Positions 8,392 through 31,465 of a stretch of 36,770 nucleotides of DNA are shown here, piece by piece. Position 1 is the first letter of the stretch. The number at the start of each line of letters is the position of its first letter. Both the position numbers and the translations under genes were made by a program. Under the pieces are notes generated by a model. The model was not told where the DNA came from, did no database searches, and worked only from the letters and a program-made list of their open reading frames with translations. Source of the stretch: Armatimonadota bacterium (GTDB taxonomy: Bacteria; Armatimonadota; Zipacnadia; Zipacnadales; UBA5352); NCBI GenBank assembly GCA_034722055.1, contig JAYENL010000106.1, positions 1 through 36,770 of the forward strand. Direction: 5' to 3'.

Positions 8392-8594
8392 TGTCAACGG
8401 CCGGCGGCGTGGGCACGCCGCCGCTCCGTACAGCAAAGCCATGTCGTCTACTGTAGGGCGCGGACCCGTGCCGCGCCTGTCGTTGCCGTCCGTCGTTGCC
8501 CCCCCCTCCCGCCTGCCAGCGAAGCCAGCGAAGGAGAGAGGGATGGAGTGCGCCCCACAAACTCCACCGGGTGAGGCCCCGTCGGCATCCTGCA

Positions 8595-10811: not shown

Positions 10812-12230
10812 ATGGACACGATCACCGTACCGCAGCGCGAGATCCCCGTCATCGGGGAGTACGACGTCATCGTGGCGGGAGGGGGGCCAGGCGGGATACC
10901 GGCGGCCGTCGCCGCGGCGCGCGCGGGCGGCAAGACGCTGCTCGTCGAGCGCTACGGCTACCTCGGGGGCATGGCCACAGCCGGCCTCATCGCAGTCATC
11001 CTGGGCGTGAGGGCCTCCGGGACCGACGAGCCCATGATCGGCGGGATCGCCGAGGAGCTCTGCCGCCGGATGGCTGAGCTCGACGGCGCACCGCCCTATG
11101 AGGAGGCTATCGCCAGCGGTGGGATCCGCTTCGAGCCGGAGGCCTTCAAGCTCGCCAGCGATGAGCTGGTGCTGGACGCCGGCTGCGAGCTGCTGCTGCA
11201 CTCCTGGGCCGCGAACACAGTGGTGGACGACGGGCGCGTGCAGGCGCTGGTGCTGGAGGGCAAGTCCGGCCCGCGGGCGGTGCTCGGCGAGGTCTTCGTT
11301 GACGCCACCGGCGACGCCGACCTGGTGGCGCAGGCCGGCGCGGACTTCACATTCGGGCGCTCGGCCGACGGCGCGGTGCAGTCGATGGGCAGCATGTTCC
11401 GCATCGGCGGAGCGGACTCCCAGCGCCTGCCCACCGGCGAGGCCATGGAGGACTTCCGCCGGCGCGCCCGCCAGGCCATCGACGAGGGTCGCATCACCGC
11501 CTACAACCCGCACTGGGGCGGCGCCATCGCCGGCAAGGACCGCGGCCAGTACATGGCCAACTGCACGCGCTTCGCAGGCGACCCCTGCAGCGTGGAGGAC
11601 CTGACGCGGGGTGAGGTGCAGATCCGGCGCGACACCTGGGAGATCGTGGACTTCTGGCGGGAGTGCGTGCCGGGGATGGAGGAGGCCTACCTCATCCAGA
11701 CCCCGCCGCATATCGGCCTGAGGGAGAGCCGGCAGATGGTGGGGCTGGAGGTGGTCACCGGCCAGGACGTCACCGAGGCGCGACGCCGGGATGACGCCGT
11801 GGCGCGCTGCCCCTACTGGATCGACATCCACTGCCCGTTGGGCCGCGTCAAGCACGACACGCACCTGTGCTACACGGGCTGCCCCAACGAGCCGCCCTGC
11901 GCCATGTACGAGGAGCACTACGACGAGCTGCCCGGCGACCCGGACGCCGAGTCCGACCGAGCGGGCCTGTACCCCCGCGACGGACTGTGGTTCGACATCC
12001 CGTGGGGCTCTCTGGTCTCCGCGGAGATACAGAACCTGCTGGCGGCCGGCCGCGCCATCTCCGCCGACCACCAGGCCATGGCCGCCCTGCGCGTGATGGG
12101 CCCCTGTATGGCGATCGGGCAGGCCGCCGGCGAGGGAGCCGCCATGGCTGCGGACGCGGATGGCAACGCCGCGGCGGTGGAGATCAGCGCCCTCCAGGAG
12201 CGCCTGCGGGCCAACGGCGCGGCGGTGTGA
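10812..12230 (+). CDS. FAD-dependent oxidoreductase (FAD_oxidored/HI0933-like family)
   Basis: YDVIVAGGGPGG, VERYGYLGG, FVDATGDADL, IGLRESR and NLLAAGRAISADH..RVMGPCMAIGQAAG. RBS AGGAGG. Transcribed divergently from the DegT gene. Confidence 0.88.
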   Translation: MDTITVPQREIPVIGEYDVIVAGGGPGGIPAAVAAARAGGKTLLVERYGYLGGMATAGLIAVILGVRASGTDEPMIGGIAEELCRRMAELDGAPPYEEAIASGGIRFEPEAFKLASDELVLDAGCELLLHSWAANTVVDDGRVQALVLEGKSGPRAVLGEVFVDATGDADLVAQAGADFTFGRSADGAVQSMGSMFRIGGADSQRLPTGEAMEDFRRRARQAIDEGRITAYNPHWGGAIAGKDRGQYMANCTRFAGDPCSVEDLTRGEVQIRRDTWEIVDFWRECVPGMEEAYLIQTPPHIGLRESRQMVGLEVVTGQDVTEARRRDDAVARCPYWIDIHCPLGRVKHDTHLCYTGCPNEPPCAMYEEHYDELPGDPDAESDRAGLYPRDGLWFDIPWGSLVSAEIQNLLAAGRAISADHQAMAALRVMGPCMAIGQAAGEGAAMAADADGNAAAVEISALQERLRANGAAV

Positions 12231-12319
12231 TGCGCCTCCGACCTCCGCGGCGAGGACCGTGCATTCGCTACAATGTGATCGGGGGCAAAGGCTATATGCC
12301 AACCTATCGGTAACTGGCC

Positions 12320-12398
12320 TGGAGGGGCCGTCGCGCAGCGAAGCAAGCGATGCGATGGTGCGAGCCTCTGAGCACCATCGCAGGTTCCACCCCGGCCC
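12320..12398 (+). repeat. Branched REP-like element, copy 1
   Basis: TGGAG-GGGCCG-[hairpin]-[hairpin]-GGTTCCACCC-CGGCCC. Confidence 0.85.
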
Positions 12399-12588
12399 AC
12401 GTCATCTGCGGCAAATCACAACGACGGGGCGCGAACGAGGGCGCGCCGCTCCAGACGCCTCGACGAACGACAACGACGGGCGGGCAAGGAAGCCCGCCCC
12501 TCCGTACGGCCTCTCTGCGCTACCCACATCTTGCGGGAGGCCTACGATGGAGTTGAGCCGGGACTGTGCGCGTGTCTTGTTGTCATGC

Positions 12589-12664
12589 GGAGGGGCCGCC
12601 CGAGCGCAGCGAGGGTGCCGCGTGCGTGGTCGTTCTGTGCAGGCGGCAGGTTCCATCCCGGCCC
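12589..12664 (+). repeat. Branched REP-like element, copy 2
   Basis: GGAG-GGGCCG-CCC(GAGCGCAGCGA)GGG-TGCCGC..GCGGCA-GGTTCCATCC-CGGCCC. Confidence 0.8.
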
Positions 12665-12676
12665 GGCCGTTCTCAC

Positions 12677-12726
12677 CCGAACATCGGCCGCGGAGCGGGC
12701 GTCTGTTGCAGCGAATCGGTGGTGCG
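12677..12726 (+). promoter_or_regulatory. 50-bp element shared with 14784-14833, upstream of an exported-protein gene
   Basis: 46/50 identical to 14784-14833, including an identical core GGCGTCTGTTGCAGCGAATCGGTGGTGCG. The regulatory role is inferred from position only. Confidence 0.5.
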
Positions 12727-12817
12727 TCGAGCAGACCATCCGTCGCCACAGGGCGCCGGGGATAGCGTGTGCCTGTAGGATCACCACCACCGGAGCCATG
12801 CAGGAGAGATCGGCGAG

Positions 12818-13612
12818 ATGATCCACCACACACCAGCCAACCCGCCAGCGGTCGGTCAACGGCGTCAGCACAGTGGCAGTCCGCCGCTGCTTCTGTGCGC
12901 GAGCGTGGTCACTGTGGCGCTACTGTGCGGCGCACAGGGCTGCCGCGACGTCCAGCCACAGTGGCGAGTCATCGACCGGCCCGGGAAGGCCATCGTCGGC
13001 CAACGCAACACCCATGCGACCTCCGGGGTCTGGGTGGCACGACACTATGGGTGGGACGATCCGGAGCTGACGGACAAGCGGTCGGTCGCGGCAATGAACC
13101 TGTATATGGTGGAGGACTGCGGGGGGTGCCCCGTGCCCAGCATCTGGCACATAGCCACCGGTCTGCAGGATTACCTCCAGGTCGAGAGGGTCGAGGGCGT
13201 CGAGATCACGGAGCGAGTCCGCTATACGAAGGACCCCCTCGAGCGAGCTGACTTCGAGGACTACAAGGCCTCAATCGATGACAACCGCCCCGTTATCCTC
13301 ACCTTCTGCTACGACGCCGGGACAGGGGAGGACCCGGCTTACGCCAGGCAGCGCGCCATCCGCGCCTTCAGTGCCGTCGGCATCGGGTACATCGAGCGCG
13401 GAGGTCGGCGGTATGTGATCTGCCACGACGGCTTCGACTCGCCGCCGGTGAGGCATAAGGCGATCGAGGATCAGGTCGCCGCCGAGGACCTGGGCCTGGG
13501 CAGGCAGTCCGGACCATGGCAGCAGACGGGCACATCGATCTACCGCTGGGACGGCAAGCACGAGAACGTGGTCATGGTGTTCGTAAGGCCCGCACAGAAG
13601 CGTCGGGAGTAG
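12818..13612 (+). CDS. Hypothetical exported protein or lipoprotein with weak C39-like (papain-fold) resemblance
   Basis: Hydrophobic stretch ending AQGC. Pattern IDDNRPVILT..AVGIGY..YVICHDG. The start position is uncertain. Confidence 0.65.
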   Translation: MIHHTPANPPAVGQRRQHSGSPPLLLCASVVTVALLCGAQGCRDVQPQWRVIDRPGKAIVGQRNTHATSGVWVARHYGWDDPELTDKRSVAAMNLYMVEDCGGCPVPSIWHIATGLQDYLQVERVEGVEITERVRYTKDPLERADFEDYKASIDDNRPVILTFCYDAGTGEDPAYARQRAIRAFSAVGIGYIERGGRRYVICHDGFDSPPVRHKAIEDQVAAEDLGLGRQSGPWQQTGTSIYRWDGKHENVVMVFVRPAQKRRE

Positions 13613-13833
13613 CGCAGCTTGCGGCTGCGAGTCCCGGCTTGGGCCGAAGCAGGCACAGGAGCCCTGCCCGCGTCGCGGCACGCAACGCGATCCGACAGGC
13701 AGCCCAAGCGGCGACGAGCGCCGAATTGGGCGCTGCATCTCCGCCAGGGCGCACTACGAAGGCATGCCAACCACCACCGCAGAGAGGCGCAAGCGGTGGT
13801 GATTGGTCAGGGTAGCTCGGCTGTCCCTCCTGA

Positions 13834-14538
13834 CTATCCTTCCCCGAACGGATCGTAGAAGGTCCACAGCGGCGGATGGACCTCGTAGCTGCTGCTGTGG
13901 GGCGGCTCCCAGCCCGGGTGTGGGATCGGGCCATGCTCGGCCCTCAGCCACTTGGCGTGGCCGTCGATGAAGGCCAGGTTCATGCCGTCGTTGTGATCGT
14001 CCCGGCAGGCGTAGTACTTATGGTGCAGCAGGTACTGACAGCCGCCGCCGGCGCCCTTCTCGGTGATCATCAGGGTCTGCGCGGGACGTCGGAACTCCGC
14101 AAGCGTCGGCCGTCCAAACATGCTCACACGTCCGCCCGATGGGTCCGCGCCGTGCCGGGGCAGACCGTACGCAACGCCGTAGCAGTTGTACCTCGTGCTG
14201 GGGCAGCGGTAGACCTGCACGTTCTTGATGTAGGGGTATATCGCGTTGCTCCAGCAGTCGAAGTAGCCGTAGCTCGGGTGGTAGTTGAACTCGGGGTGGC
14301 CTGGCACCCACGGCTCTGACCGGGTCGGGCCGTTGTAGAGAGCGCAGAAGGTCTCATCGTAGTCCTGGGCGTACATCAGCATCCCGAGGGCCAACTGCTT
14401 GAGGTTGCTGAGACAACTCGCCTGCCGAGCCTTCTCCCGCGCGCGGGCGAAGACCGGGAACAGAATGGCTGCCAGGATGGCGATGATGGCGATCACCACC
14501 AGCAGCTCGATCAGGGTGAAGCCCTTCCGTCGTCGCAT
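13834..14538 (-). CDS. DUF1559 / prepilin-type N-terminal cleavage-methylation protein with H-X9-DG motif
   Basis: [44 protein letters not shown] and [24 protein letters not shown]. Confidence 0.93.
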
Positions 14539-14783
14539 CAGACTACCTCCTCATCCTTCGCTTTGGGGCAACTGGCGGATCTGGTTAAGGATACTGGACG
14601 CCCTGCTCCCACCGAAGGCCGCGCCGCCATTCTTGCAGCAGCCCTATCGTCACATCAATTATTTCGCCATCCGCTTGCCTGCACCTCCCCTGCCTGCAAG
14701 GAATCTTCGCGTTTGACCACCCGCTGGCGATTGGAGCGGGCCACAGCAGCCGCTCGCTTGTCAGGGCAACGCCCGGGGCCGCG

Positions 14784-14833
14784 CCGAAGATCCGCCGCGC
14801 AGCCGGCGTCTGTTGCAGCGAATCGGTGGTGCG
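14784..14833 (+). promoter_or_regulatory. Second copy of the 50-bp upstream element
   Basis: 46/50 identical to 12677-12726. Followed by TGGTATCAT (extended -10-like) near 14848-14856. Confidence 0.5.
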
Positions 14834-14906
14834 CTGCACCGGCATCGTGGTATCATGTGAGCAGGCCGGGCTCGACATCTCGTCACGCGCGGGGAGGCCC
14901 ACGACG

Positions 14907-16415
14907 ATGACAACGTCTCGAACGGCAGCTCTGTTGGCGGCGCTCGCCACCCTGTCGCTGGTGGGTGTGGCGCCGGCTCAGCGCGGCCAGGTGGCGACCA
15001 ACAAGGCCGTGCTGAGCTCCATGTATGGTGACGTGCAGACCCGCCACGGCACCGCCGGCTATCACCCGGCCACCCGCAACGAGGTGCTCTCACCCGGCGA
15101 CGCCGTGAAGACCGGAGCCGACTCCCGCGCGGAGCTCTCCATCGGCGAGGGGGGCTACGTGCGCATGGACGAGAACTCGCAGGTGCTGGTGACGGCGATC
15201 AACGTCGGCGGGCGCACCACCTTCCAGGCCATCGTCGGCGGGATTTGGGTGACGATCGAGCGCGCGCTGGGGGGCTCCAGCAAGTTCGAGGTGCGCATGC
15301 CCAGCGCCCTGGCAGCGGTCACAGGCACCGTCTTCCGCTGCCAGGTCGATGAGGAGGGGGTGTCCGAGACCTACGTCTACGAGGGCGCAGTGCAGGTGAA
15401 CGTTGGCGATCAGAGCCTGCGCGTGGAGCCGGAGCAGCGCTGTCGCGTGCCCCGGAACCTGCGGGCGGCTGTCGAGCGGTTCAGCCTCACCGGCGACGAT
15501 GAGTCCGCCTGGGTCATGTACAACCGGCACCGCGACATCGTCCGTCACCTGGGGAATCCGACCATCGTGGTCGGCCTGCGCGAGCACAACATGCCGGAGG
15601 AGGGCGTCTTCGCGGCCTCCAGGGCCATCGCGGGCCAGCTCGCGCTGCATGGCCTGCACAGCACGTCAATCGAGGACGTGGAGGGCGGGCAGTTCAGCTT
15701 CAACCCCGACGGCACCATCCGCTGGCGCCGCACGCCCATGGCCGGCTACTGCGTGATCGGGGATGTGACGCTGGAGCGGCTCCGGCGCGTGAACGAGCGC
15801 ATCTTCTCCGCGCGTGTGCGCGGCGACATCCGGCTGGTTCGGGACGGCGAGACCGAGGCGCTGACCTCCATCGAGACCCTGGTGCCGGGCGTCGGGCGCA
15901 ACCCCAAGCAGGCCGTGGGGGCGGCGCTGCTGTCGCTGGGCAAGCGCGTGGGGGCGGGCCTGGCGCCTCGGATCATCCGCGAGCTGATGCAGGCGCACGT
16001 GGGTGCGGTCCGCATCGACCTCACCAGCGCGACCCGCCAGCAGGTGGCGCAGGTGCGGCGGCTGGTCACTGAGATGGAGGGCGTGCTGCGGACGGCGCCG
16101 CTGGTGCTGCCCGGCGATCGGATCTCACTCGCCGTGGTCACACAGGTCTCGCCCGACCAGATCGCCGCCGTCATCGAGCAGCGCGCGGGCGAGCAGCTCC
16201 AGCGCGTGCTGGTGGGCGAGCGCGTGCTGTTCGTCAAGTTCAAGCCTACGCCGGCCGGCCAGTCGCAGGCGACACAGCCGCCGCAGGCACAGCAGCGACC
16301 TCGGGCTGGGCCCGAGGCCGGTCCGGCGGCGGGGCGTCTCGGACGTCCTCAGCAGCGCAACCGACCGCAGCGGCCCTGGAGGCCCGGCGTCCTGCGGCCG
16401 CCGACCGATCGTTGA
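14907..16415 (+). CDS. Exported FecR-domain protein with uncharacterised C-terminal domains
   Basis: Signal peptide, then LSPGDAVKTGADSRAEL..VRMDENSQV..FEVRMPSALAAVTGTVF..VYEGAVQV (FecR domain). ATG at 14907 follows GGGGAGG. Confidence 0.82.
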   Translation: MTTSRTAALLAALATLSLVGVAPAQRGQVATNKAVLSSMYGDVQTRHGTAGYHPATRNEVLSPGDAVKTGADSRAELSIGEGGYVRMDENSQVLVTAINVGGRTTFQAIVGGIWVTIERALGGSSKFEVRMPSALAAVTGTVFRCQVDEEGVSETYVYEGAVQVNVGDQSLRVEPEQRCRVPRNLRAAVERFSLTGDDESAWVMYNRHRDIVRHLGNPTIVVGLREHNMPEEGVFAASRAIAGQLALHGLHSTSIEDVEGGQFSFNPDGTIRWRRTPMAGYCVIGDVTLERLRRVNERIFSARVRGDIRLVRDGETEALTSIETLVPGVGRNPKQAVGAALLSLGKRVGAGLAPRIIRELMQAHVGAVRIDLTSATRQQVAQVRRLVTEMEGVLRTAPLVLPGDRISLAVVTQVSPDQIAAVIEQRAGEQLQRVLVGERVLFVKFKPTPAGQSQATQPPQAQQRPRAGPEAGPAAGRLGRPQQRNRPQRPWRPGVLRPPTDR

Positions 16416-16706
16416 CCGGGGCCGGCCGCCATCGCAGCGCTAACCGCAACCTTCAGGCCTGATCACCTGCGGGGGTCGGCCTGCACGATGCGCCTCTGCC
16501 CCTGCACAGTGACTCGTGCGTCGAGCTTTTGCCGGGGCGCTTCCGGCGCATCTTCCCGCTGAGAACATGAAAATGTGCGGAACATAAAGCCAGGCGAGTT
16601 GTCTCTTACGAATAGTGCTGGCCTTATTCAGGCAATCACGGTATCATAGAGCCTGAGGAATCGACATGCGCGCGCCACCCGCGGGACGCGGGGGAGGCTG
16701 AGTACC

Positions 16707-18209
16707 GTGCGTGCATCACGACTCATCGTATTCGCGACGTGCGCCGCACTGATCCTGGCGGCTTCCGCTGTACTGGCCGATCAGGGGCAGGTGGCCACCA
16801 GGCAGGCCGTGCTGACCTCCATGTACGGAGAGGTCCACATCGCCCACGGCACAGAGAGCTATCATCCGGCGAGCCTCAATGAGGTTCTGAGGCCGGGGGA
16901 CACGATCAGGACCGGCCCCTCTTCCCGCGCCGAGCTCACCGTCGGCGAGGGCGGCTTCGTGCGCCTGGATCAGAACTCGCAGGTGCGGGTCACCGCACTG
17001 AGCACCGGCGCCAGGACCACATTTGAGGCTGTTGTGGGCGGCATCTGGGTGACGATAGAGCGAGCCCTCACGGGGGGGAAGAAGTGGGAGGTTCGCATGC
17101 CCAGCGCCGTGGCATCGGTGAAGGGCACGGTGTTCCGCTGCCGGGTGACTGAAGACACCTCTGAGACAGTGGTCTATGAGGGCCGGGTCGAGGTCTCGGC
17201 GGGGATACAGCTCCTGCAGGTGGAATCCGACCGCCGCTGTCGCGTGCCCCCCGACCTGCGCGCGGAGCTGGGGCCGTTTGACCTCACCAGCGATGATGCG
17301 TCCGCGTGGGTGATGTACAACCGTCATCGCGACATCGTCCAGCACCTGGGCAGTCCCGCAATCATGGTGGCCCTCAGGGAGCATGAGATGCCCGCCGAGA
17401 GTGTCTTCAGCGCTTCCAGGCGCATCGCTGCCCAGTTCGCTCTCCACGGCCTGCACAACACCTCCGCCCAGCAGGTTCGCGGAGAGGAGTACTCCCTCAA
17501 TCCAGACGGAACCGTCCAGTGGCGCAACCTTCCGGACGCGGACTTCTACGTCATCGGCGACGTCAGCCTGGATGGACTCGGGCAGGATGGCAACGCCCTG
17601 TTCTCGGCGCGCGTGAGCGGCGACATCATGCTGGTGCGCACCGGTGCGGAGACGCCCGTCAGCTCCGTTGAGGCCACCTCACGGGGCTTCGGACGCGACC
17701 CCGAAGAGGCCCTCGGTGCCGCACTGACGTCGCTCGGCAGGCGCGTCGGCATGGCTATGGGGCCCCGTGTGATCCGGGAGATGATGCGTGGGCGAGGGCG
17801 ACCGGAGGCGGTGCGCGTTGATGTCAGCGGGGCCACGCGCAGCCAGGTCGCGCACCTGCGGAGGATCATCTCCGAGATGGACACCGTCCTGCGTGCTGCT
17901 CCGCTGGCGCTGCCCAACGGGGCCGTGTCACTCGCTGTGATCACGGAGGCCGCACCCGGCGAGATCGCGGCGGAGCTTCGGGAGCGCATTCCGGATCAGC
18001 TTCAGCGGGTGGAGCCCATCGAGCGCGTGCTGCTCGTCGTCTTCCGAACGCCCGAGACTGCTCCGGGCGAGGTCTTGCCCCAGCAGCAGTTGGGCGCGGA
18101 GGACGAGGAGGGAGAGGCCAAGCCCCGAAGAGCCCCGCCGCTGCCCCCGCAACCGGCTCCCCAGCAGGAGCCGCCGCCCCCACTGCCTGAAGGCGAGGGG
18201 CAGGCCTGA
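16707..18209 (+). CDS. Exported FecR-domain protein, full-length paralog of 14907..16415
   Basis: Colinear similarity (QGQVATRQAVLTSMYG, SAWVMYNRHRDIV, PRVIREMM). GTG start after GGGGGAGG. Confidence 0.82.
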   Translation: MRASRLIVFATCAALILAASAVLADQGQVATRQAVLTSMYGEVHIAHGTESYHPASLNEVLRPGDTIRTGPSSRAELTVGEGGFVRLDQNSQVRVTALSTGARTTFEAVVGGIWVTIERALTGGKKWEVRMPSAVASVKGTVFRCRVTEDTSETVVYEGRVEVSAGIQLLQVESDRRCRVPPDLRAELGPFDLTSDDASAWVMYNRHRDIVQHLGSPAIMVALREHEMPAESVFSASRRIAAQFALHGLHNTSAQQVRGEEYSLNPDGTVQWRNLPDADFYVIGDVSLDGLGQDGNALFSARVSGDIMLVRTGAETPVSSVEATSRGFGRDPEEALGAALTSLGRRVGMAMGPRVIREMMRGRGRPEAVRVDVSGATRSQVAHLRRIISEMDTVLRAAPLALPNGAVSLAVITEAAPGEIAAELRERIPDQLQRVEPIERVLLVVFRTPETAPGEVLPQQQLGAEDEEGEAKPRRAPPLPPQPAPQQEPPPPLPEGEGQA

Positions 18210-18230
18210 CGGAGGCGGTCCGCGATCGCC

Positions 18231-19922
18231 GTGCTCGAGACCAGTCTCAGCAGACGGGCCGCGGTTACCGTGGCATTCGTCATCGCCGTGCTCGGGGTGA
18301 TGGCAGGAGCGCGGCTGCACTCGCTGAGGGCTCTGGAGCTGCTCGCGGTGGAGTGGCGGTTGCGGTTGGACCACCCGCGGCCTGATGTGGACGACTTCGT
18401 CCTCGTCGGGATCACCTCAGAGACGCTTGATGAGCTGCCGCTGTGGGGGCCGACCGCGCTGGAGCGCTCCAGGTACGTCCCCGTCATTCGGAATCTCGAC
18501 TCCTGGGGCGCCCGCACCATCGCTCTGGACGTCTTCTTCGCCGGCGAATCCGACGACCCCGACGCCGACCCGGACCTTGTGCGAGACACCCGGCAACTGG
18601 CCGAGGCCATCGCCGGCGCCGACAACGTGGTCATCGTGGCCGGGGCCAACCCCCAACTGCGCGACGGAGCGGAGAACGCCCGCTTCCAGTTCCCCGCTGC
18701 GCCCGTCGCCGCCGCCGCGTGCACCGTTGCCTCCCCCCTGCTGCCCAGGCCCGACAATACCATACGGCGCGTGGAGAGCATCCAGGAGGCCGCCGACGGC
18801 ACTGTCGCATGGCCGTCCCTGTCGCGGGCGCTGCTCCGCGACGCCGTGAAGCACGTCCCGTCCGAGTTCATCATCCACTGGGCCGGGCCCGCTGGGACCG
18901 TGAAGACGGTCCCCTTCGAGGACGTCGCGGCCGGAACCGCCGATCCCGGCGCCTTCAGAGGCCGCTTCGCCCTCATCGGCGTCACGGACGAGATCAAGGA
19001 CCTCTTCTCCACGCCGGTGGGCCCAATGAGCGGCGTAGAGATCCACGCGCAAGCGGCGGCCACCATACTCTCGGGCAAGTACGTGCGCGAGGCCGGCGCT
19101 ACCACCGGTCTGCTCATCGCCCTTCCCGCCTGCCTGCTCGTCAGCTTCGTGGGCCGAGGGGGCCGGCTCTGGTGGACGTGGGGCGTGACAGGCCTGGTGG
19201 GAGTAGGCTGGACGGTGGCGGCGGCGCTGGTCTTCGTTCGCTCCTGTGTGCTGCTGCCGGTCATCGGCCCTGGCTTCGCGATGGTAGCCTGCGGGGTGCT
19301 GGTCTCCGCGCTGCAGAGCGAGGCGGCGCTGAGCTCGCTGGGGCGCCTGTGGCCGAGCTGGGTCTCCGAGGAGGGAGAGCAGCTCGAGGTCACGGTCCTC
19401 GTCTGCGACATGGCCGGATACACGGAGCGCTCGGAGCGCTCCTCGGCGGCGGAGATGATGGAGATGATGCGCGAGTTCTTCGCCATCGTCGATGGCACGG
19501 TGGCGCCCCACGGCGGCATCTCGGCGCGGCGTCCCGGGGACGCCGCGGTGGTGTTCTTCCGCCCCGACGACGACCGGCCACACCACGCCCGACGGGCCCT
19601 CGCGGCAGCGCAAGAGCTGCGCCACAGGCTGGCGGAGCGCTGGCCGAGCGAGGACATCGGCTTCGGCCTCACGCTCACCACCGGCGAGGTGTCGCTGGGC
19701 TGGGTTGGTGAGCAGCCGCCCGAGCCGCAGATCCTCGGCGACCCCGTGAACGTGGCCTTCCGGCTGCAGAGCGAGTGTCGGGAGCGCGGCTGCCCCATCC
19801 TGGCCGACTGGGCGACCGCCACCGCCGACGAAGAGACGTCAGCGTCGATGCGCCCCCTGGGCCAGGTGCAGGTCCGCAACCGCCGCGAGCCGGTGCAGAT
19901 ATTCGCGCCGGCAGGGCAATGA
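18231..19922 (+). CDS. CHASE2-domain class III adenylate/guanylate cyclase-like membrane protein
   Basis: N-terminal TM, CHASE2 motifs (VLVGIT..TL, IALDVFF, DLFSTPVGPMSGVEIHA), three TM helices, and a cyclase domain VLVCDMAGYT..PGDAAVVFF..LGDPVNVAFRLQ. Confidence 0.85.
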   Translation: MLETSLSRRAAVTVAFVIAVLGVMAGARLHSLRALELLAVEWRLRLDHPRPDVDDFVLVGITSETLDELPLWGPTALERSRYVPVIRNLDSWGARTIALDVFFAGESDDPDADPDLVRDTRQLAEAIAGADNVVIVAGANPQLRDGAENARFQFPAAPVAAAACTVASPLLPRPDNTIRRVESIQEAADGTVAWPSLSRALLRDAVKHVPSEFIIHWAGPAGTVKTVPFEDVAAGTADPGAFRGRFALIGVTDEIKDLFSTPVGPMSGVEIHAQAAATILSGKYVREAGATTGLLIALPACLLVSFVGRGGRLWWTWGVTGLVGVGWTVAAALVFVRSCVLLPVIGPGFAMVACGVLVSALQSEAALSSLGRLWPSWVSEEGEQLEVTVLVCDMAGYTERSERSSAAEMMEMMREFFAIVDGTVAPHGGISARRPGDAAVVFFRPDDDRPHHARRALAAAQELRHRLAERWPSEDIGFGLTLTTGEVSLGWVGEQPPEPQILGDPVNVAFRLQSECRERGCPILADWATATADEETSASMRPLGQVQVRNRREPVQIFAPAGQ

Positions 19923-19961
19923 ACCGGAAGCTGCGCCGGCTCGCGTGGGCGCCAAACGAAC

Positions 19962-19991
19962 TTGACACCGGACTTGTGCGTCCGCTATAAT
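19962..19991 (+). promoter_or_regulatory. Consensus sigma70 promoter for tRNA-Leu (and possibly ferritin)
   Basis: TTGACA at 19962-19967, 18-bp spacer, TATAAT at 19986-19991. Confidence 0.85.
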
Positions 19992-20011
19992 CACAGCACA
20001 ACATGGCATGG

Positions 20012-20099
20012 GCCGAAGTGGTGGAACTGGTAGACACGCTGTCCTCAGGAGGCAGTGGGGTACTCCCCCGTGCCGGTTCGAATCCGGCCTTCGGCACCA
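20012..20099 (+). tRNA. tRNA-Leu(CAG)
   Basis: Acceptor stem GCCGAAG/CTTCGGC, D-loop GGAACTGGTAGAC, anticodon arm CTGTC-CTCAGGA-GGCAG, long variable arm, T-arm GGTTCGAATCC and encoded CCA. Confidence 0.96.
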
Positions 20100-20178
20100 G
20101 ATGACCTTCACGGCGGCGCCACGGCAGGTGTCGCCGTCTGTGTGTACACAGGGCGAAAGTACGATCGGAGGAGACGTG

Positions 20179-20700
20179 ATGATCGACGAAGGCATGGCTG
20201 GGGCCATCAACGACCAGATCAACGCTGAGCTGTACTCCGCGTACATCTACTACTCCATGGGCGCCTGGTTCGAGGAGCAGAACCTGCCGGGCATGGCCCA
20301 GTGGATGAAGGCGCAGACCCAGGAGGAGATGTTCCACGCCGACAAGTTCTTCAACTACCTCGCCGAGCGCGGCGGACGCGTTCTGATGCAGGCTATCGAC
20401 GAGCCGCCGACAGAGTGGGACTCGCCCCTGGCGGTCTTCGAGCACGCCTACGAGCACGAGCAGTACGTGACCAGCCGCATCAATGACCTGGTGGACCTGG
20501 CCGTCGAGCTCAAGGACCACGCCACGAACCAGTTCCTGCAGTGGTATGTGGAGGAGCAGGTGGAGGAGGAGGCCAGCGCCGACGAGATCGTCCAGCAGCT
20601 CAAGCGCATCGGCGACAGCGCCAACGCCCTCTATATGCTGGACAAGGAGCTGAGCGCGCGCACCTTCTCCCTGCCCGCCGAGGGCGAGGAAGAGGAGTAG
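20179..20700 (+). CDS. ftnA: Non-heme ferritin
   Basis: INDQINAELYSAYIY, QEEMFHADKFFNY, HEQYVTSRINDL and FLQWYVEEQVEEEA. RBS GGAGGAG. Start is GTG 20176 or ATG 20179. Confidence 0.95.
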   Translation: MIDEGMAGAINDQINAELYSAYIYYSMGAWFEEQNLPGMAQWMKAQTQEEMFHADKFFNYLAERGGRVLMQAIDEPPTEWDSPLAVFEHAYEHEQYVTSRINDLVDLAVELKDHATNQFLQWYVEEQVEEEASADEIVQQLKRIGDSANALYMLDKELSARTFSLPAEGEEEE

Positions 20701-20728
20701 GCCGCAGGCACAACCGGTTGCACCCACC

Positions 20729-20758
20729 ACGGGGCGCCCGACATCGGGCGCCCCGTTT
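20729..20758 (+). terminator. Hairpin between convergent genes (terminator or REP-like)
   Basis: ACGGGGCGCCCG-ACAT-CGGGCGCCCCGT followed by TT. Confidence 0.55.
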
Positions 20759-20910
20759 GCTATGGCGAGAGGTCCCACGAGCGAGCGTGCCGTGGCGCTT
20801 CCCGCTGCTGGAGGCCGTCAGCAGGGACATGAACGCCATCGAGGTCGGCGACGTCTGCTCCACTGCTGTCAGCGATGACCGAAGCCGCAGTCACGCATGT
20901 CTCCGCTCGG

Positions 20911-22869
20911 CTACTCCCCGAACGGCTGCCACTCGCCGATGTCATCGATGACGCGGATGCGGTCAGCGGCGCCGAGGGCCTCGTAGGCGTCCACCGTCCA
21001 CTGGTAGGCCTCGGGCATCTCGCCGACAAAGGTGATCGGTCGCGGGAAGACCAGTGCCAGATTCTGCGGAAGGTCGCCAATGCGCAGCACGCCCATGATC
21101 TCCGCAGTGTCGGGGTTCTGGTGCGAGGTGACCGGGTCCGCCAGCACGATCTCGCTGACCTCGCCATCGAGGATCGCGGCATAGATGGCGTGCGCCGCGA
21201 AGGCGCCCTCGCCGTAGACCGCGGTCTCCCCCACCGCCTCCCGGTCGCGGATGACGCGCAGCGCGGCCAGCAGGTCCAGCGTCTGGCGCTCGGGCACCGT
21301 GAATCCGCAGATGACCATGCCGCGGCGGACGGTCCATTGCAGGCCCTCACCGATGGCGGTGGAGCCGAGGCCGCGCGGCTCCACGATGCCGGTGGCGATC
21401 TCGGATGGGACGCCCGGCCGGCCGGTGCCGCCGTAGGGCGAACGTCCTCCGGGGAAGCAGGTGACAATCGCCGGCTGGGGGCGGTCGCCGAGCTTCTCCA
21501 GCCGCAGGTGCGCGCGGACCTCAAAGCCGTCGCCGGGGTCGATGTCGAAGCGATATGAGACCACGCCGCCGCCCCCGCCCTCGTCGCGCGTAAAGACCAC
21601 GCGCGGCCGGACCGGGTGGGGGATCTGCCGGAAGCTGACCGCGCGCAGGCGCTTGATGGCATCCTCCTGGTGGGCGGCCCATTGCTCCTCGCTGCGCACC
21701 TCCACGGGCTTCGCGGGCGGGATGAGGAGCTTCTCGATCTCCCCCATCCTGTCGTCCTCGGGCAGCTCGCCGCCGAAGACCAGCAGGTTCTCCTCCGGCT
21801 CCTCGAAGTCCGTGACGTCGTCGGTGACCGGAGAGGTATCGCCCTTCAGGTGGCGATTGAACCACTCGAAGATGGCCTTGCGCAGCATCGGCGTGTAACC
21901 GTGGAAGCTAAGGTCCTCGACGAGCCGGCAGTTCTCCGCCGCGCCCATGGCCTCGTAGACCCGCCGGATGCGATGCACCTGGCGCTTGTAGGCGTAGGGC
22001 CGCCAGAGCCCGTCATCGGCGCCGGCGGCCACCAGCAGCGGCCGGGGGGCGATCAGGGCGCCGATGTGTGCGGTATCCCAGCGGTAGTAGTTGACGAAGC
22101 ACGCGCAGTCACAGTGGCCGTCGAGGCATCGGTCGCAGATGAGCTGCTGCATGTCCCCGGTCTGGCAGACCGGGGAGACGCACTTGATGCGCGTGTCGGC
22201 GGCGGCAAGGTTCCAGGAGATCACGCCGCCGCCCGACAGGCCGGTCACGCCCATGCGATCGGCGTCCACGTCATCGCGCGAGGCCAGGTAGTCCAGCGCC
22301 CGCATGGCGTTCCAGACCTCGGTGCCGGAGGGCGTGTAGCCGCGGCTGATCCAGTCCCAGCGGCCCTCGCGGTAGGTCCCGTGGTGGATGCCCTGGCACT
22401 CGCCGAGCTGGATGGGGTCCACCACCAGCGCCACGTAGCCGTGAGAGCCGAACCAGCGAGGGTTCTGCTGGTAGGTGAGGTTGACCTTGCCCCTGGTGTG
22501 GCCGCACAGATACAGCACCGCCGGCAGGGGCTCGTTGATCTCGTGCGGCCGATAGAGGTTCGCGGCCACGTGCGCGCCGGGCACCGACTGGTAGTGGATC
22601 TTCTCGACCACGTAGTCATCGCGCTCCAGCGTGCCGGCGACCGTGGCCTCCAGGGGCGTCCGCTCCGGCAGCGGCCACAGCCCCAGGCACTCCAGCCACC
22701 TCGTGCGCCGCTCGTCCTCGCTCCACTCGAGCTGCTGCGCGCTGGGCGGGATGAGCATGGCCTGCGACGAGATGGCGGTCGCCTCATCGCACAGCCAGTC
22801 GTAGACGGAGCCTGTCGGCGCTCCCATCGCGGCGGCGCCTATGGCTGTCACGGGCAGAAGTGTCATCAT
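20911..22869 (-). CDS. Alpha/beta hydrolase (acetylxylan esterase/dienelactone hydrolase-like) with a second degenerate hydrolase domain
   Basis: PAVLYLCGH, RALDYLASRDDVDADRMGVTGLSGGG (nucleophile elbow) and ALIAPRPLLV. The C-terminal repeat ends ALVFPRPITF. Confidence 0.8.
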   Translation of the reverse strand: MMTLLPVTAIGAAAMGAPTGSVYDWLCDEATAISSQAMLIPPSAQQLEWSEDERRTRWLECLGLWPLPERTPLEATVAGTLERDDYVVEKIHYQSVPGAHVAANLYRPHEINEPLPAVLYLCGHTRGKVNLTYQQNPRWFGSHGYVALVVDPIQLGECQGIHHGTYREGRWDWISRGYTPSGTEVWNAMRALDYLASRDDVDADRMGVTGLSGGGVISWNLAAADTRIKCVSPVCQTGDMQQLICDRCLDGHCDCACFVNYYRWDTAHIGALIAPRPLLVAAGADDGLWRPYAYKRQVHRIRRVYEAMGAAENCRLVEDLSFHGYTPMLRKAIFEWFNRHLKGDTSPVTDDVTDFEEPEENLLVFGGELPEDDRMGEIEKLLIPPAKPVEVRSEEQWAAHQEDAIKRLRAVSFRQIPHPVRPRVVFTRDEGGGGGVVSYRFDIDPGDGFEVRAHLRLEKLGDRPQPAIVTCFPGGRSPYGGTGRPGVPSEIATGIVEPRGLGSTAIGEGLQWTVRRGMVICGFTVPERQTLDLLAALRVIRDREAVGETAVYGEGAFAAHAIYAAILDGEVSEIVLADPVTSHQNPDTAEIMGVLRIGDLPQNLALVFPRPITFVGEMPEAYQWTVDAYEALGAADRIRVIDDIGEWQPFGE

Positions 22870-23051
22870 CTCACTCACCTGTCCTGACTCGTCGATTGAA
22901 TGGATCGTGGGCGGCGTCTTTCGCTGCCAACACCTCTTGTCGGCCTTCGGCCCACATCGGGCGTGCCCACCCCCCAACTCCGTACGACATAGTGCTGGGC
23001 GATAGGAACCCGCGTAGTATCCTGCCTCACACTAACCGCTTGCTTCCGCCA

Positions 23052-23267
23052 TGGAGGGGCCGCCGCGAGCGGAGCGAGCGGTGTGACGTCGCGAGCGCAG
23101 CGAGTGACCTCACAGGTTCCACCCCGGCCCACTCGTTGAGTAGCGCAGGCGCCCCCGCCTGCGCGCGGTTTAGCCCCTGGGTAGAGCTGCGGGCCGGGGT
23201 GGAACCTTCGGCCTGTTCGCTACGCTTACAGGCCTCACCGGGCGCTGTGCGCCCGGCGGCCCCTCCA
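23052..23267. repeat. Inverted doublet of branched REP-like elements (copy 3: 23052-23130 +; copy 4: 23191-23267 -), REPIN/MITE-like
   Basis: Termini TGGAGGGGCCG ... CGGCCCCTCCA. Both halves carry GGTTCCACCCCGGCCC. Confidence 0.88.
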
Positions 23268-23390
23268 CCGGAATCCTCCTTCTCCTGATCAGAACCAAGC
23301 CCCGCCGACCTCCTCTGTCATCATTCTGCCATCACTCCTGAGAGCGAGACACTAGTCCGCGGGCGGGGTGACACCTTCGGTCTGCTCTCG

Positions 23391-24359
23391 TCAGGTCCCC
23401 GGTGGCGCAGGGGGCGCCGCGGCGGTCGCGAAGCTCCTCATGCTGCTGAACAGCCAGCCGCGCTGCCCCAGACGCCCGGTCTCCGGCAGCGCCTCACCGG
23501 CGCGCCGGGCTCCGACTCGCCAGTAAAACGTCTCGCCGGGCGCAAGCCGCGCCTGGATGGTGTGCGACATGACGCCGCCGCTGGCGCGCCGAATCTGCAT
23601 CTGATGCTCCGGATGCCGCAGGCCGGAGGGATCATCCTCCCGGAAGACCTGTAGCAGGTACTCATCAGCGCCCAGCGTGGCGTTCCACCTGAAGGTGATC
23701 GACGCCGTGGGCTGATTGCGGGCGCCGGGGGCCGGGGACTCGAGCACTGGCGGCGTGAAGTAGGTGACGCCGGCGGTCGGGAGGCTGCCCTCGCTCAGCG
23801 CGCCAGGGGGATCGACGTCGAGCACCGGCGTAACCGCCTGAGCCGGCGAGGCGCTCGTGGCGATCGGCGCGCCGCTGCCCGCCCGCTCCATCGGCTCCAC
23901 GACGCGCTGCACGCGGTGGTAGTAGATCCGCCCGCGCTGCAGCGCGTCATCAAAGAAGATGAACTGCATCGTGCCGGTCTCTTCCTCACCCGCCGCCGAG
24001 ATCCAGGTGAACTCCTCGTCGATATCGAACGGGCCGGACGCCCCCGGCGCATCATCCCACGTGCCCGCCGGCAGGTGCGACTCCAGCACCACATCCACCA
24101 GCCTCTGTGCGGTCAGGCTGAAGTATCGCTGGCCCTCGGCGCGGTAGAATAGCCAGGCGAAGATCTGCTCCTTGAGCGGGATCGATGGCTGCTCGAGATG
24201 GAGCCTGATGACGGCCTCATCGCCGGGCGCCTCCTGATACAAATGCGCCCATGTTCCCTGAACGCGCTGCGTCGTGGCGCCATCTCCGCCGCCACAGCCG
24301 GCCAGCAGAAGCAGGGAGAGCAGAGCTACGCTCACGACGATAGCTGCACAGGATCGCAT
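23391..24359 (-). CDS. Hypothetical lipoprotein with C-terminal fibronectin-III/Ig-like region
   Basis: Lipobox LLAGC after a hydrophobic signal. PVLESPAPG..TFRW..GADEYLLQV..FYWRVGAR pattern. RBS AGGAGG. Confidence 0.75.
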   Translation of the reverse strand: MRSCAAIVVSVALLSLLLLAGCGGGDGATTQRVQGTWAHLYQEAPGDEAVIRLHLEQPSIPLKEQIFAWLFYRAEGQRYFSLTAQRLVDVVLESHLPAGTWDDAPGASGPFDIDEEFTWISAAGEEETGTMQFIFFDDALQRGRIYYHRVQRVVEPMERAGSGAPIATSASPAQAVTPVLDVDPPGALSEGSLPTAGVTYFTPPVLESPAPGARNQPTASITFRWNATLGADEYLLQVFREDDPSGLRHPEHQMQIRRASGGVMSHTIQARLAPGETFYWRVGARRAGEALPETGRLGQRGWLFSSMRSFATAAAPPAPPGT

Positions 24360-24490
24360 GAGTCCGACCTCCTCGAGAGATGATTCCCCGCCGCACATAC
24401 GCATTGTAGTGGTGACTTGCGCAATCCCGCGTATGTTCACGACGAGCGCACTCAGCGCTTGGTTGGGTTGGAGATGAGCGGCGTACCTCG

Positions 24491-24709
24491 TGGAGGGGCC
24501 GAGCCGGGCGCTGCGCGCCCGGTGAGGCCGGTGAGCGCAGCGAACCGGCCGAAGGTTCCACCCCGGCCCAGGACGCATCTGTGCCGAGAGCGGAACGGCG
24601 TGGAGGCGAGGGCGCCCGCATTACTTAACGCGTGGGCCGGGGTGGAACCTGAGCGGTGCGTTAGGGAACGCACCGCTCACCGCTCGCTTCGCTCGCGGCG
24701 GCCCCTCCA
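24491..24709. repeat. Second inverted doublet of branched REP-like elements (copy 5: 24491-24569 +; copy 6: 24634-24709 -)
   Basis: Its reverse complement aligns with 23052-23267, including part of the spacer. Confidence 0.88.
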
Positions 24710-24830
24710 TGGTGGGCGCGAGCGTCCTATCGTAACGCAACAAGGTACGCGAACTTCTGCGAGTCAGCACTACCCTCCCTTCCGCGCTCTCCCGTTAAGT
24801 CTTGATGACTGCTCGGCTGCCCGGCGATCA

Positions 24831-27171: not shown

Positions 27172-27301
27172 GGCGGCGAACGTCGGCAGGCTGCAGGCCC
27201 GCGGGACGGGAGATCGAGTGGAACGACCGTGGTGGGCCGGCCTCGGGCGTCTGCTGCGCAGCCGCAGCTCGTGCGGCCCCTCCGACGGCTACGAAACGGC
27301 G

Positions 27302-27862
27302 GCAGGCTGGAAGCCTGCGGCGACGATGCCTCGGTCCGTAGGGCAAGCATCCCTGCCTGCCAACGCCCGCAGGCTACGAGTCGGAGCGGGAGAGCGGAGA
27401 ACAAACAGCGGACGGGTCTGAGGACCCGTCCCTCCGAACGGCGCACGGGCAGGAGTGCCCGTGCCACGGAACGACAACGGCGAACGGCCGCAGGCTGGAA
27501 GCCTGCGCCACCATGCCTCGGTCCGTAGCGCGGGCATTCATGCCTGCCAACGACCGCAGGCTACGAGTCGGAGCGGGAGAGCGGAGAACGCCGAACGGCG
27601 CACGGGCAGGAGTGCCCGTGCCACGGAAGGACAACGGCGAACCACCGCAGGCTGGAAGCCTGCGCCACCATGCCTCGGTCCGTAGGGCAAGCATCCCTGC
27701 CTGCCAACGACCGCAGGCTACGAGTCTGCAGGGGGACAGCCCAGAACGACGACAAACAGCGGACGGGTCTGAAGACCCGTCCCTCCGAACGGCGCACGGG
27801 CAGGAGTGCCCGTGCCACGGAACGACAACGGCGAACGGCCGCAGGCTGGAAGTTTGCGCCAC
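27302..27862. repeat. BIME-like tandem array of about three mosaic units built from four different REP-like hairpins
   Basis: GCAGGCTGGAAG(C/T) recurs at 27302, 27490, 27647 and 27841. Units also carry GTAG-GGCAAGCATCCCTGCCTGCC, GGACGGGTCTGA(A/G)GACCCGTCC-CTCC and GCACGGGCAGGAGTGCCCGTG-CCAC. Confidence 0.9.
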
Positions 27863-27887
27863 GACATGTAGATGAGCGAAGGGGATC

Positions 27888-31337: not shown

Positions 31338-31465
31338 CGACCGCAGGCTGGAAGCCTGTGGGCAGATCGCGCGGCAACGACCGTGGTGGGCCAGCCTCGC
31401 GCCTCCGGCGCTCGTGCGGCCCCTCCGACGACGCAAACGACCGCAGGGTGGGAGTCTGCGGCACG
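31338..31465. repeat. REP-like cluster homologous to 27185-27320
   Basis: Shares AACGACCGTGGTGGGCC..GCTCGTGCGGCCCCTCCGACG and CGCAGGCTGGAAGCCTG. Confidence 0.75.

What the first reader, a model, noticed from the sequence alone, without database searches (positions are those of the whole stretch)
12320..24709. Six-copy branched repeat with fixed ends and sequence-variable but always base-paired inner hairpins
Seen: copies at 12320-12398(+), 12589-12664(+), 23052-23130(+), 23191-23267(-), 24491-24569(+) and 24634-24709(-). All read GGAG-GGGCCG-[HP1]-T[HP2]A-GGTTCCA(C/T)CC-CGGCCC. HP1 stems vary: TCGC/GCGA, CCC/GGG, CCGC/GCGG, CCGGGCGC/GCGCCCGG. HP2 stems vary: TGCGATGGTGC/GCACCATCGCA, TGCCGC/GCGGCA, TGTGA/TCACA, GGCCTGT/ACAGGCC, GGCCGGT/ACCGGCC, TGAGCGGTGCGTT/AACGCACCGCTCA. 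Length stays at 76-79 nt. Every copy has AGCGNAGC in at least one loop. Removing HP1 and HP2 leaves a simple REP, GGAG-GGGCCGGG-TTCCAC-CCCGGCCC. Established: d(GCGNAGC) forms exceptionally stable ssDNA mini-hairpins, and GGAG is a REP foot. Inference: a cloverleaf-like ssDNA or RNA element selected for shape and size rather than sequence, possibly an undescribed class of HUH-transposase substrate or structured ncRNA. Variants with the same outer stem occur at 27234-27283 and 31388-31426, with a decayed fragment near 23361-23385.
Basis: partly seen in the sequence, partly recalled or inferred. Interest (0 to 1): 0.78.

Follow-up and report, generated by a model that had tools for sequence, protein, structure and literature searches.

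The report
Four-armed REP repeats inside transposon shells
The six repeats belong to a family of about 190 copies that flanks a small "domesticated" transposase gene (RAYT) in this Armatimonadota genome and is likely its single-stranded DNA substrate; unlike the plain hairpins known for such repeats, each copy is predicted to fold into a perfect four-way junction with swappable arms, and most copies sit inside the ends of two unrelated insertion sequences.

Summary
The genome holds 192 matches, nearly all intergenic, and the element flanks a RAYT gene on another contig and six RAYT relatives in kin genomes. It is a REP: a conserved 26-nt core (GGAG foot, 6-bp stem, 10-nt cap) with two hairpins inserted at one fixed point. 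272 of 319 distinct interiors close a gap-free four-way junction (shuffles about 11); one-armed forms were not seen. Size is not fixed (52–128 nt in this genome), and the core is conserved in sequence, so "shape and size rather than sequence" holds only for the arms. 130 of 192 copies lie just inside IS630-type or IS4/Tn5-type ends; the IS4-type units carry 9–10-bp target duplications. In the same copies the REP core has diverged 1.5–4% and the IS ends 11–19%. Against the model: in inverted pairs the predicted equilibrium fold pairs the two cores with each other instead, and no activity is shown. The scan had already read what appears to be this family as a RAYT REP on another piece of this genome. 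The junction rule, the GGAG-footed RAYT clade and the IS shells are added here. New variant of a known kind.

The parts
12321..12398 (+). Four-way REP copy, rare arm class (HP1 TCGC/GCGA, HP2 TGCGATGGTGC stem); no clear IS end upstream
12478..12503 (-). Armless 26-nt cousin: GGAG foot, 6-bp stem, 10-nt cap of another family
12513..12531 (+). IS4/Tn5-type 19-bp end, followed by a leader (12532-12588) to the foot of the next copy
12589..12664 (+). Four-way REP copy, class D
22990..23354 (.). 365-bp IS630-type shell (TAGTG...CACTA; both ends degenerate, the right end read by eye) holding an inverted B-A REP pair
23053..23130 (+). Four-way REP copy, class B
23191..23266 (-). Four-way REP copy, class A (tandem GA/GA at the HP2 junction)
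23361..23385 (-). Decayed copy, cap end only, just outside the shell
   Evidence: read by eye
24407..24772 (.). 366-bp IS630-type shell holding an inverted A-B REP pair; terminal repeats 24407-24433 and 24746-24772
24492..24569 (+). REP copy, class A, with a 2-nt insertion that breaks the perfect junction
24634..24708 (-). Four-way REP copy, class B
27234..27283 (-). GGAG-footed REP of a sister family (the type beside the RAYT gene on contig C61), not the four-way type
31388..31426 (-). Second copy of the sister-family REP

Best explanation
The six copies are REP elements that flank a RAYT (HUH/Y1 transposase) gene of this Armatimonadota lineage and are likely its single-stranded DNA substrate; each is a conserved 26-nt GGAG-footed core with two exchangeable hairpins inserted at one fixed point, predicted to fold into a gap-free four-way junction, and most copies lie inside IS630-type or IS4/Tn5-type ends. 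Shown: the family, its place beside RAYT genes, the core-plus-two-arms anatomy, the compensatory arm types, the IS ends, and target duplications for the IS4-type units. Inferred mechanism: on transient ssDNA the ultrastable GNA hairpins fold first; outer stem and cap would stack into one helix so that the RAYT still sees an ordinary footed REP while the two arms stack crosswise, which would explain why arms come in twos with no linker. The RAYT would cut at C|T (A3-G4 of the foot are kept) and rejoin, spreading and reshuffling inverted pairs. Such pairs were caught at least twice inside DDE insertion sequences that then lost their transposase. The IS4-type shells were inserted by their own transposase; the IS630-type ends now diverge as fast as the DNA beside them, so RAYT binding or a host use of the core, not the IS transposase, most likely keeps the core intact.
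For: The RAYT gene on C193 has an inverted pair on each side. Its protein scores 92.6 against a cut-off of 80 on NF047646, keeps HUH, Tyr and WQ..R motifs, and its best PDB match is E. coli TnpA-REP 4ER8. Six related RAYTs in kin genomes are flanked by the same core with new arms; with the own gene they form one side of a branch, 82/78. The wider 32-protein clade (100/97) has GGAG-footed hairpins, while 5 of 5 outgroups inspected have GTAG. Junction rule: 109 of 135 own and 163 of 184 other distinct interiors, against shuffle means 5.9 and 4.8; a 1-3-nt linker in 1 of 319; 13 and 16 different fully paired 4-bp junction stems for HP1 and HP2. One-armed interiors: 0 of 169 own and 0 of 218 in loci. 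The same arms sit on four other caps, with compensatory changes in cap and outer stem. Variation: core 1-2%, paired arm sites 4.1%, unpaired 14.1%, flanks 29%; 23 of 32 double changes restore pairing. 191 of 192 copies lie outside my called genes, with convergent gaps enriched, 46 of 150 against 259 of 2168. IS ends: 105 IS630-type and 25 IS4-type among 192 copies, matched to transposase-bearing elements in kin; 9-10-bp duplications in 15 of 23 IS4-type units. Core 1.5% against IS ends 18.8% and leader 19.6% in 95 copies; 3.8% against 11-13% when copies are picked by the IS end.
Against: No binding, cleavage or structure is shown. In inverted pairs the predicted equilibrium DNA fold pairs each core with its partner's complement: the local outer stem forms in 0 of 94 half-units, against 68 of 94 folded alone. 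The four-way fold would therefore need kinetics or protein in pairs, and the gap-free arms could instead belong to the pair's fold. The 7-protein branch is not strongly supported (82/78). No RAYT of that branch was among the loci examined for G005, G007, G010, G016 and G017, which carry the cap motif 15-26 times (30 of 64 matches were fetched, and the assemblies are incomplete). The own RAYT has Asp and Arg where E. coli has the metal ligands N119 and H123, so it may be impaired. E. coli TnpA-REP tolerates no change in GTAG. 35 of 138 IS630-type ends have lost the REP. Copies are related, so substitution counts are not independent events. Hairpin self-repair by template switching (recalled) can make compensatory changes without selection.
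Confidence: 0.78

Rival explanations
1. The REP pair is inert cargo. Copies are spread only as IS630- and IS4-type MITEs by DDE transposases, and the arms stay paired through hairpin self-repair, not selection.
For: 130 of 192 copies have an IS end within 125 nt. IS4-type units have 9-10-bp duplications, which point to DDE insertion. A 409-bp unit is cleanly absent at the orthologous site of the congener. The same IS630 ends carry other cargo in G005 and none in a G001 unit. The shells account for the A-B and C-D pairing.
Against: The IS ends diverge as fast as the leader (18.8% and 19.6%) while the core is at 1.5%, the reverse of what a MITE needs. Eight genomes of genus g3 have no match to the IS630-type end pattern, and seven of them carry the cap motif. 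Copies beside the RAYT have no IS end. Self-repair would not fix the unpaired cap loop, the zero linker or the strand bias of GNA loops. No intact partner transposase was found in this genome.
Confidence: 0.1
2. The element works mainly as RNA, a transcribed cloverleaf that stops exonucleases or ends transcription, and that is what selects its shape.
For: Enriched in convergent gaps; within 150 nt of a stop codon, 59 copies are sense and 20 antisense. G-T outnumbers A-C 56 to 28 on the foot strand. RNA folds give the cloverleaf for four of the six copies. REPs are known to affect mRNA stability (passages).
Against: Both orientations occur equally in tandem gaps (47 and 43), and the sense excess near stops follows partly from the geometry of inverted pairs. 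The loops are GNA triloops with all four N and GGTA tetraloops, the DNA mini-hairpin type; the review read says the RNA counterpart r(GCGAAAGC) is much less stable. No Rfam or tRNA match. It flanks RAYT genes. A secondary RNA role is not excluded.
Confidence: 0.08
3. The functional structure is the long hairpin of the inverted pair (a REPIN-type fold with a six-way junction); the single-copy four-way junction is incidental.
For: Predicted equilibrium folds of pairs use core-to-core pairing (z -7.5 and -9.9). 47 of 51 close pairs are feet-out. The doublet is argued to be the replicating unit in Pseudomonas (passages).
Against: Pairing with a partner does not need a self-complementary outer stem or cap, yet both show compensatory variants. 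53 of 192 copies are true singles. The RAYT gene itself sits between far-apart copies. E. coli TnpA-REP binds one REP as a monomer.
Confidence: 0.12

Closest known systems
REP/BIME/REPIN with RAYT (TnpA-REP): E. coli REPtron (PMC3333891, PMC3479197, PMC8266576) and Pseudomonas REPINs (PMC3116915)
   Same: Intergenic, high copy number, 4-nt foot 5' of a GC-rich stem, inverted feet-out pairs of unlike partners, cognate Y1/HUH gene flanked by the repeat; in E. coli the upper stem has a structural, sequence-tolerant role.
   Different: Foot is GGAG, not GT(A/G)G; the unit is 52-128 nt and branched, with two hairpins closing a gap-free four-way junction, where the described types are short, long, bulged or double-foot hairpins; most copies here are nested in IS ends.
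Complex-loop GTAG families and long TIRs of 'TIRtrons' (Di Nocera 2013, PMC3733652)
   Same: Alternative self-complementary inserts in a fixed REP stem (GTAG-3, GTAG-14); degenerate REPs joined to unrelated stem-loops in hundreds of copies beside RAYT genes in P. putida and P. fluorescens.
   Different: As described in the text, those inserts extend the apical loop or adjoin the REP; no two-arm junction and no GGAG family is named in the main text. The figures with the sequences could not be seen.
IS630-family and IS4/IS50(Tn5)-family MITEs
   Same: Terminal repeats match transposase-bearing IS630 (up to 25 of 27 nt) and IS4/Tn5-type (19-bp) elements in kin genomes; 9-10-bp duplications for the IS4 type; CTAG context for the IS630 type.
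   Different: The interior is a RAYT REP pair far better conserved than the ends. The known REP-IS link is the reverse, IS elements inserting into REPs (IS1397, IS621).
Integron attC sites (recalled)
   Same: ssDNA substrates read by shape, with variable inner palindromes and a similar length range.
   Different: No integron integrase over cut-off in the genome, no cassette arrays, and the partner enzyme is an HUH transposase.

Membership tests
REP/RAYT (REPtron) system | Short palindromic repeat in many intergenic copies | tested here: met
   192 matches; 191 outside my called genes
REP/RAYT (REPtron) system | Cognate RAYT gene (HUH + Tyr) flanked by inverted copies | tested here: met
   C193 gene, NF047646 92.6 > 80; six relatives likewise flanked
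REP/RAYT (REPtron) system | Conserved tetranucleotide 5' of the stem foot | tested here: met
   GGAG, 1.8% variation; shared by the 32-protein clade
Canonical GTAG-type REP (Di Nocera families; Quentin subclasses 2.2-2.8) | Foot reads GT(A/G)G and the body is an unbranched hairpin | tested here: not met
   Foot GGAG; two-arm junction in 272 of 319 interiors. It works like these REPs but is not filed among them.
REP/RAYT (REPtron) system | Inverted doublets (REPIN/BIME) | tested here: met
   47 of 51 close pairs feet-out; 102 of 192 copies paired
REP/RAYT (REPtron) system | RAYT binds the single strand and cuts at C|T | not testable with these tools
   C precedes 57 of 83 IS630-type unit ends, which fits both C|T cutting and CTAG targeting
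IS4/IS50-type MITE (outer shell of C-D units) | Terminal repeats shared with an autonomous IS4-family element | tested here: met
   1471-bp element L419 with 19-bp ends; transposase scores 421 > 160 on NF033590 and has Tn5 domains
IS4/IS50-type MITE (outer shell of C-D units) | Target duplication of about 9 bp | tested here: met
   15 of 23 paired units match at >=7/9 or >=9/10; L419 itself shows none
IS630-type MITE (outer shell of A-B units) | Terminal repeats shared with IS630-family elements | tested here: met
   L376 25/27, L373 21/27 and 18/27, L372 and L383 20/27; L373 scores 250 > 100 on NF033545
IS630-type MITE (outer shell of A-B units) | TA duplication at an empty site | tested here: inconclusive
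   One empty site in the congener fits within 1 nt either way; TA intact at both ends in 32% of 41 units
IS630-type MITE (outer shell of A-B units) | Terminal repeats better conserved than the interior | tested here: not met
   Ends 18.8%, leader 19.6%, REP core 1.5%; the shell looks like a relic in the older classes
Structured ncRNA / tRNA-like | Match to a described RNA family | tested here: not met
   Rfam at gathering on the window and at E<=10 on 22950-24800, and ARAGORN: nothing on the element
Structured ncRNA / tRNA-like | Discrete transcript from one strand | not testable with these tools
   No RNA holder listed
Integron attC | IntI integrase and cassette array | tested here: not met
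   38 recombinase matches, best 77 bits against a cut-off of 265

The most novel reading that the evidence does not exclude
A RAYT lineage has turned its hairpin into an immobile, Holliday-shaped ssDNA junction whose two side arms are free cassettes, reshuffled by the enzyme and used to beat SSB or to dock junction-binding host proteins; each copy is then kept by selection at its locus, and the dead IS630/IS4 shells and target duplications that came with it give a built-in neutral clock to measure that selection and decide whether REPs persist by selfish copying or by host benefit.
Probability: 0.25. Interest if true: 0.78.

Novelty: new variant of a known kind. Interest (0 to 1): 0.55.

Why it matters
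Described REPs are unbranched hairpins with a GT(A/G)G foot, and how RAYTs spread them and what keeps them is still open. This family widens the substrate range to a GGAG-footed, four-way-junction form and makes a sharp structural prediction (two arms or none, no linker) that can be tested with oligonucleotides. Because many copies arrived inside IS-derived shells with their own target duplications, core and neutral DNA of the same age sit side by side, which allows a direct test of selfish copying against host-level retention.

Tried and rejected
Rfam and ARAGORN found only tRNA-Leu at 20012; the GGTTCCA likeness to a tRNA T-arm was dropped. Integron attC, suggested by GTTRRRY-like 3' flanks: no IntI, and the flanks of non-own copies are not conserved that way. 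The exact armless core: no match in 17 of 18 family genomes, two one-mismatch copies in G014. Pairing of the foot with the cap loop as a pseudoknot: the class with cap TTCCAT mostly has C before the foot, which breaks it. Unlike arms as a way to rescue local folding in pairs: no difference from an identical partner, although partners are never alike (alignment score at most 0.61 in 47 own pairs and 0.62 in 48 others). The A-B and C-D pairing rule (0 of 47 same-cluster pairs, 5.7 expected) first looked like a REP rule but is explained by the IS shells. The residue matching E. coli H101 is R, T or K in the GGAG clade and H in most outgroups, but one GTAG outgroup (L126) has R, so this is only a lead. 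Whole-leader profiles did not hit the own IS630 remnant on C123 at E<1; the link rests on the kin elements. No relative of the L419 transposase was found in the own genome with this query. A second empty-site comparison fell in a larger indel. Sequencing runs: no RNA holder listed. No covariance model was built and R-scape and ISfinder were not available; an alignment-free junction test was used because the arms do not align across classes.
Full report
OBSERVATION. The six copies are in the window as described. From GGAG to CGGCCC they are 75-78 nt. They lie in gaps between ordinary metabolic genes and genes without Pfam match. The window has no Rfam match on them. The genome (6.14 Mb, 68% GC, 330 contigs) has 192 matches to both fixed ends (one, on C128, looks like a chance 5' match). 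The 3' end alone matches 263 times against 16 in the reversed genome. Lengths run from 52 to 128 nt, 135 of them 75-79 nt, in 13 multi-copy interior classes. Of 51 neighbour pairs under 400 nt apart, 47 are inverted with the feet outward; 53 copies are true singles. With a crude codon-usage gene caller of my own, 191 of 192 lie outside genes. Convergent gaps hold 46 of 150 copies against 259 of 2168 gaps overall, and in tandem gaps the foot strand is sense 47 times and antisense 43 times.

PARTNER ENZYME. The genome has six Y1_Tnp genes. The one on C193 has an inverted pair of this element on each side. Its protein passes the REP-associated tyrosine transposase model (92.6 bits, cut-off 80) and its best solved relative is E. 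coli TnpA-REP. The nearest named record, at 77% identity, is an Armatimonadota genome. The cap motif occurs in 12 of 17 genomes of the family and once in 1 of 23 others. The full pattern is in 6 of 9 family genomes and 0 of 291 other genomes sampled from the phylum. I fetched 30 of 64 RAYT-like matches from 23 kin genomes. Six are flanked by the same core with different arms, and with the own gene they form one side of a branch at 82/78, neither shown nor rejected. A wider branch of 32 proteins (100/97) is flanked by GGAG-footed hairpins, 31 clearly and L107 in degenerate form, while the five outgroups inspected have GTAG. Many sister enzymes use a plain 26-nt unit: GGAG, 6 bp, a 10-nt cap, 6 bp. 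The own genome has 435 such units against 26, 30 and 52 for three control feet. Against this reading: no enzyme of the 7-member branch turned up in five genomes that carry the cap motif 15-26 times, and the own protein has Asp and Arg at two E. coli metal-ligand positions.

ANATOMY. The element is that 26-nt unit with two hairpins inserted after the sixth base pair. I tested this without alignment: does the interior split into two hairpins, each closed by three pairs, with nothing between them? It does in 109 of 135 distinct own interiors and 163 of 184 from kin genomes and 120 metagenome stretches, against shuffle means of 5.9 and 4.8 (the metagenome scan stopped at its limit and its pattern allowed only 56-86 nt). 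Of these 272, 201 close by Watson-Crick pairs, 49 by a tandem GA/GA and 22 by a single G.A at the junction. A 1-3-nt linker appears once. HP1 shows 13 and HP2 16 different fully paired 4-bp stems at the junction, with the first pairs nearly fixed (C-G; T-A or G.A). One-armed interiors were 0 of 169 in the genome and 0 of 218 in fetched loci. The same two-arm insert sits on four other caps, including cases where cap or outer stem changed on both sides. In six classes searched by the arms alone (125 of 136 distinct copies kept; 11 with shifted or damaged ends dropped), foot, outer stem and cap vary 1.1-1.8%, paired arm sites 4.1%, unpaired arm sites 14.1% and flanks 29%; 23 of 32 double changes restore pairing. 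C-G-closed GNA or GNNA loops are on the foot strand in 150 of 175 copies and on the other strand in 15. A review of mini-hairpin DNA states that GCGNAGC and GCGNNAGC are unusually stable as DNA, that r(GCGAAAGC) is much less stable, and that one such fragment binds SSB poorly (PMC13037366, start of abstract and passages). These counts are not independent events, because copies are kin.

OUTER SHELLS. Homology extends 60-105 nt beyond the foot and stops at sharp ends. Of 192 copies, 105 have one kind of end, 25 another, 59 neither and 3 are cut by contig ends; random windows match 5 and 6 times in 3000. The first kind (TAGTG...) matches the ends of IS630-family elements in kin genomes, up to 25 of 27 nt, one of them with a full transposase. 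It bounds A-B pairs here and in the congener, other cargo in G005, and is unmatched in eight g3 genomes, seven of which carry the cap motif. The second kind is the 19-bp end of a 1471-bp IS4/Tn5-type element, and 15 of 23 such units have a 9-10-bp target duplication. Copies beside the RAYT gene have neither end. In the window, 22990-23354 and 24407-24772 are IS630-type units and the 12589 copy follows an IS4-type end. The congener lacks the element at both orthologous gaps, and one 409-bp unit elsewhere is cleanly absent there, though a TA duplication cannot be read. In 95 copies chosen by arms and leader only, the IS ends differ 18.8% from class consensus, the leader 19.6%, the arms 6.4% and the core 1.5% (rows with damaged ends were left out, which lowers the core figure). 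Chosen by the IS end instead, the core differs 3.8% and the ends 11-13%, and 35 of 138 IS630-type and 20 of 51 IS4-type hits have no REP behind them (3 and 12 hits are expected by chance).

MECHANISM. Shown: family, position beside RAYT genes, anatomy, IS ends, duplications, relative conservation. From the literature read: E. coli TnpA-REP binds one REP on ssDNA through the foot and lower stem, does not touch the tip, needs an upper stem for structure but not sequence, cuts at C|T even far from the REP and recombines the pieces (PMC3479197 section 17; PMC8266576 section 15 and passages; PMC3333891 passages). Inferred: the GNA arms fold first on transient ssDNA; a perfect junction would stack outer stem on cap and arm on arm (stacked-X geometry, recalled), keeping the REP surface while one arm alone would kink it; RAYT cutting and rejoining spreads and reshuffles pairs; pairs were captured twice by DDE elements, and at least the IS4-type shells were moved by their own transposase. 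The main weakness is thermodynamic: in inverted pairs the predicted fold pairs core with partner core, and the local outer stem forms in 0 of 94 half-units against 68 of 94 alone. What holds the core at each locus, RAYT-linked copying and conversion or a host use, is not settled.

KNOWN SYSTEMS. It works like, and meets the testable marks of, a REP/RAYT system, but fails the canonical GT(A/G)G-plus-hairpin definition. Quentin 2018 (PMC6006769; abstract, passages, section 12, a search of both supplements and part 5 of 7 of the table) lists short, long, bulged and double-foot types; two table rows have a consensus starting with GGAG, and no Armatimonadota name was found. Di Nocera 2013 (PMC3733652; passages, sections 5 and 16) has no GGAG or 'branched' in its main text but describes complex loops and REP-plus-stem-loop composites whose figures I could not see. 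RepRanger (PMC12306157, term search only) gave no hit. PMC4690160, PMC3116915 and PMC3184786 were seen as passages. Nine searches found no paper on a four-way-junction REP, a GGAG family or REPs inside IS630 MITEs; the library lacks most subscription papers, and unseen figures and supplements may bear on this. The IS630 preference for TA/CTAG, the Tn5 9-bp duplication and attC features are recalled.

VERDICT. Real, a REP of a RAYT (about 0.88 for that identity, 0.78 for the whole model), a new variant of a known kind. Interest 0.55: the gap-free two-arm rule and the double capture in IS shells would surprise a REP specialist and make the question of REP maintenance testable, but the system type is known and the fold and activity are predictions.

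Noticed in passing
window 23391-24380 (-): 329-aa frame with no Pfam match lies between the two IS630-type units. It is missing at the orthologous site in G001, G010 and one G007 locus, present there in G003, and has homologues elsewhere in G005, G007 and G010; it may have been lost or moved between repeats.
   Followed up: partly
window 12230-14826: In the congener the FAD-oxidoreductase gene is followed directly by the FecR-domain gene; the 2.6 kb here (two REP copies, frames 12818-13612 and 13834-14538) is absent there, and a 50-nt direct repeat sits at 12677-12726 and 14784-14833.
   Followed up: partly
window 8113-8427 and 27171-27920: BIME-like mosaics of other REP families: eight armless GGAG+6 bp+10 nt+6 bp units in the window, and a GTGG-footed hairpin type that also flanks the Y1 gene on C324.
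   Followed up: partly
window 6931-6957 (-): A near copy of the armless GGAG REP at 12478-12503.
   Followed up: partly
G000 contigs C61, C100, C256, C30, C324: Five further Y1/RAYT-like genes, each flanked by its own repeat family; the genome carries at least six such systems.
   Followed up: partly
L344, L359, L362, L365, L368, L371 (G005): The same IS630-type ends enclose different hairpin cargo, so these shells have captured several repeat types.
   Followed up: partly
G000 C226:5123-6251 and C137: A frameshifted IS630 element with different ends has inserted into the leader of an A-B unit on C226; another frameshifted IS630 element on C137 sits between CTAG sites.
   Followed up: partly
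RAYT alignment: The GGAG-footed clade shares an N-terminal HPxRL-type motif and replaces the His after the WQ..D motif by Arg, Thr or Lys, a candidate for reading G at foot position 2; one GTAG outgroup also has Arg.
   Followed up: partly
window 1143-1259 and 3349-3548: Tandem 12-nt and 45-nt repeats inside reading frames, coding for Gly/Met/Arg-rich stretches.
   Followed up: no
window 14826-18209: Two tandem FecR-domain paralogues (about 72% DNA identity) ahead of a CHASE2 adenylate/guanylate cyclase gene.
   Followed up: no
G000, many short contigs: 38 tyrosine-recombinase-like matches, none an integron integrase.
   Followed up: no
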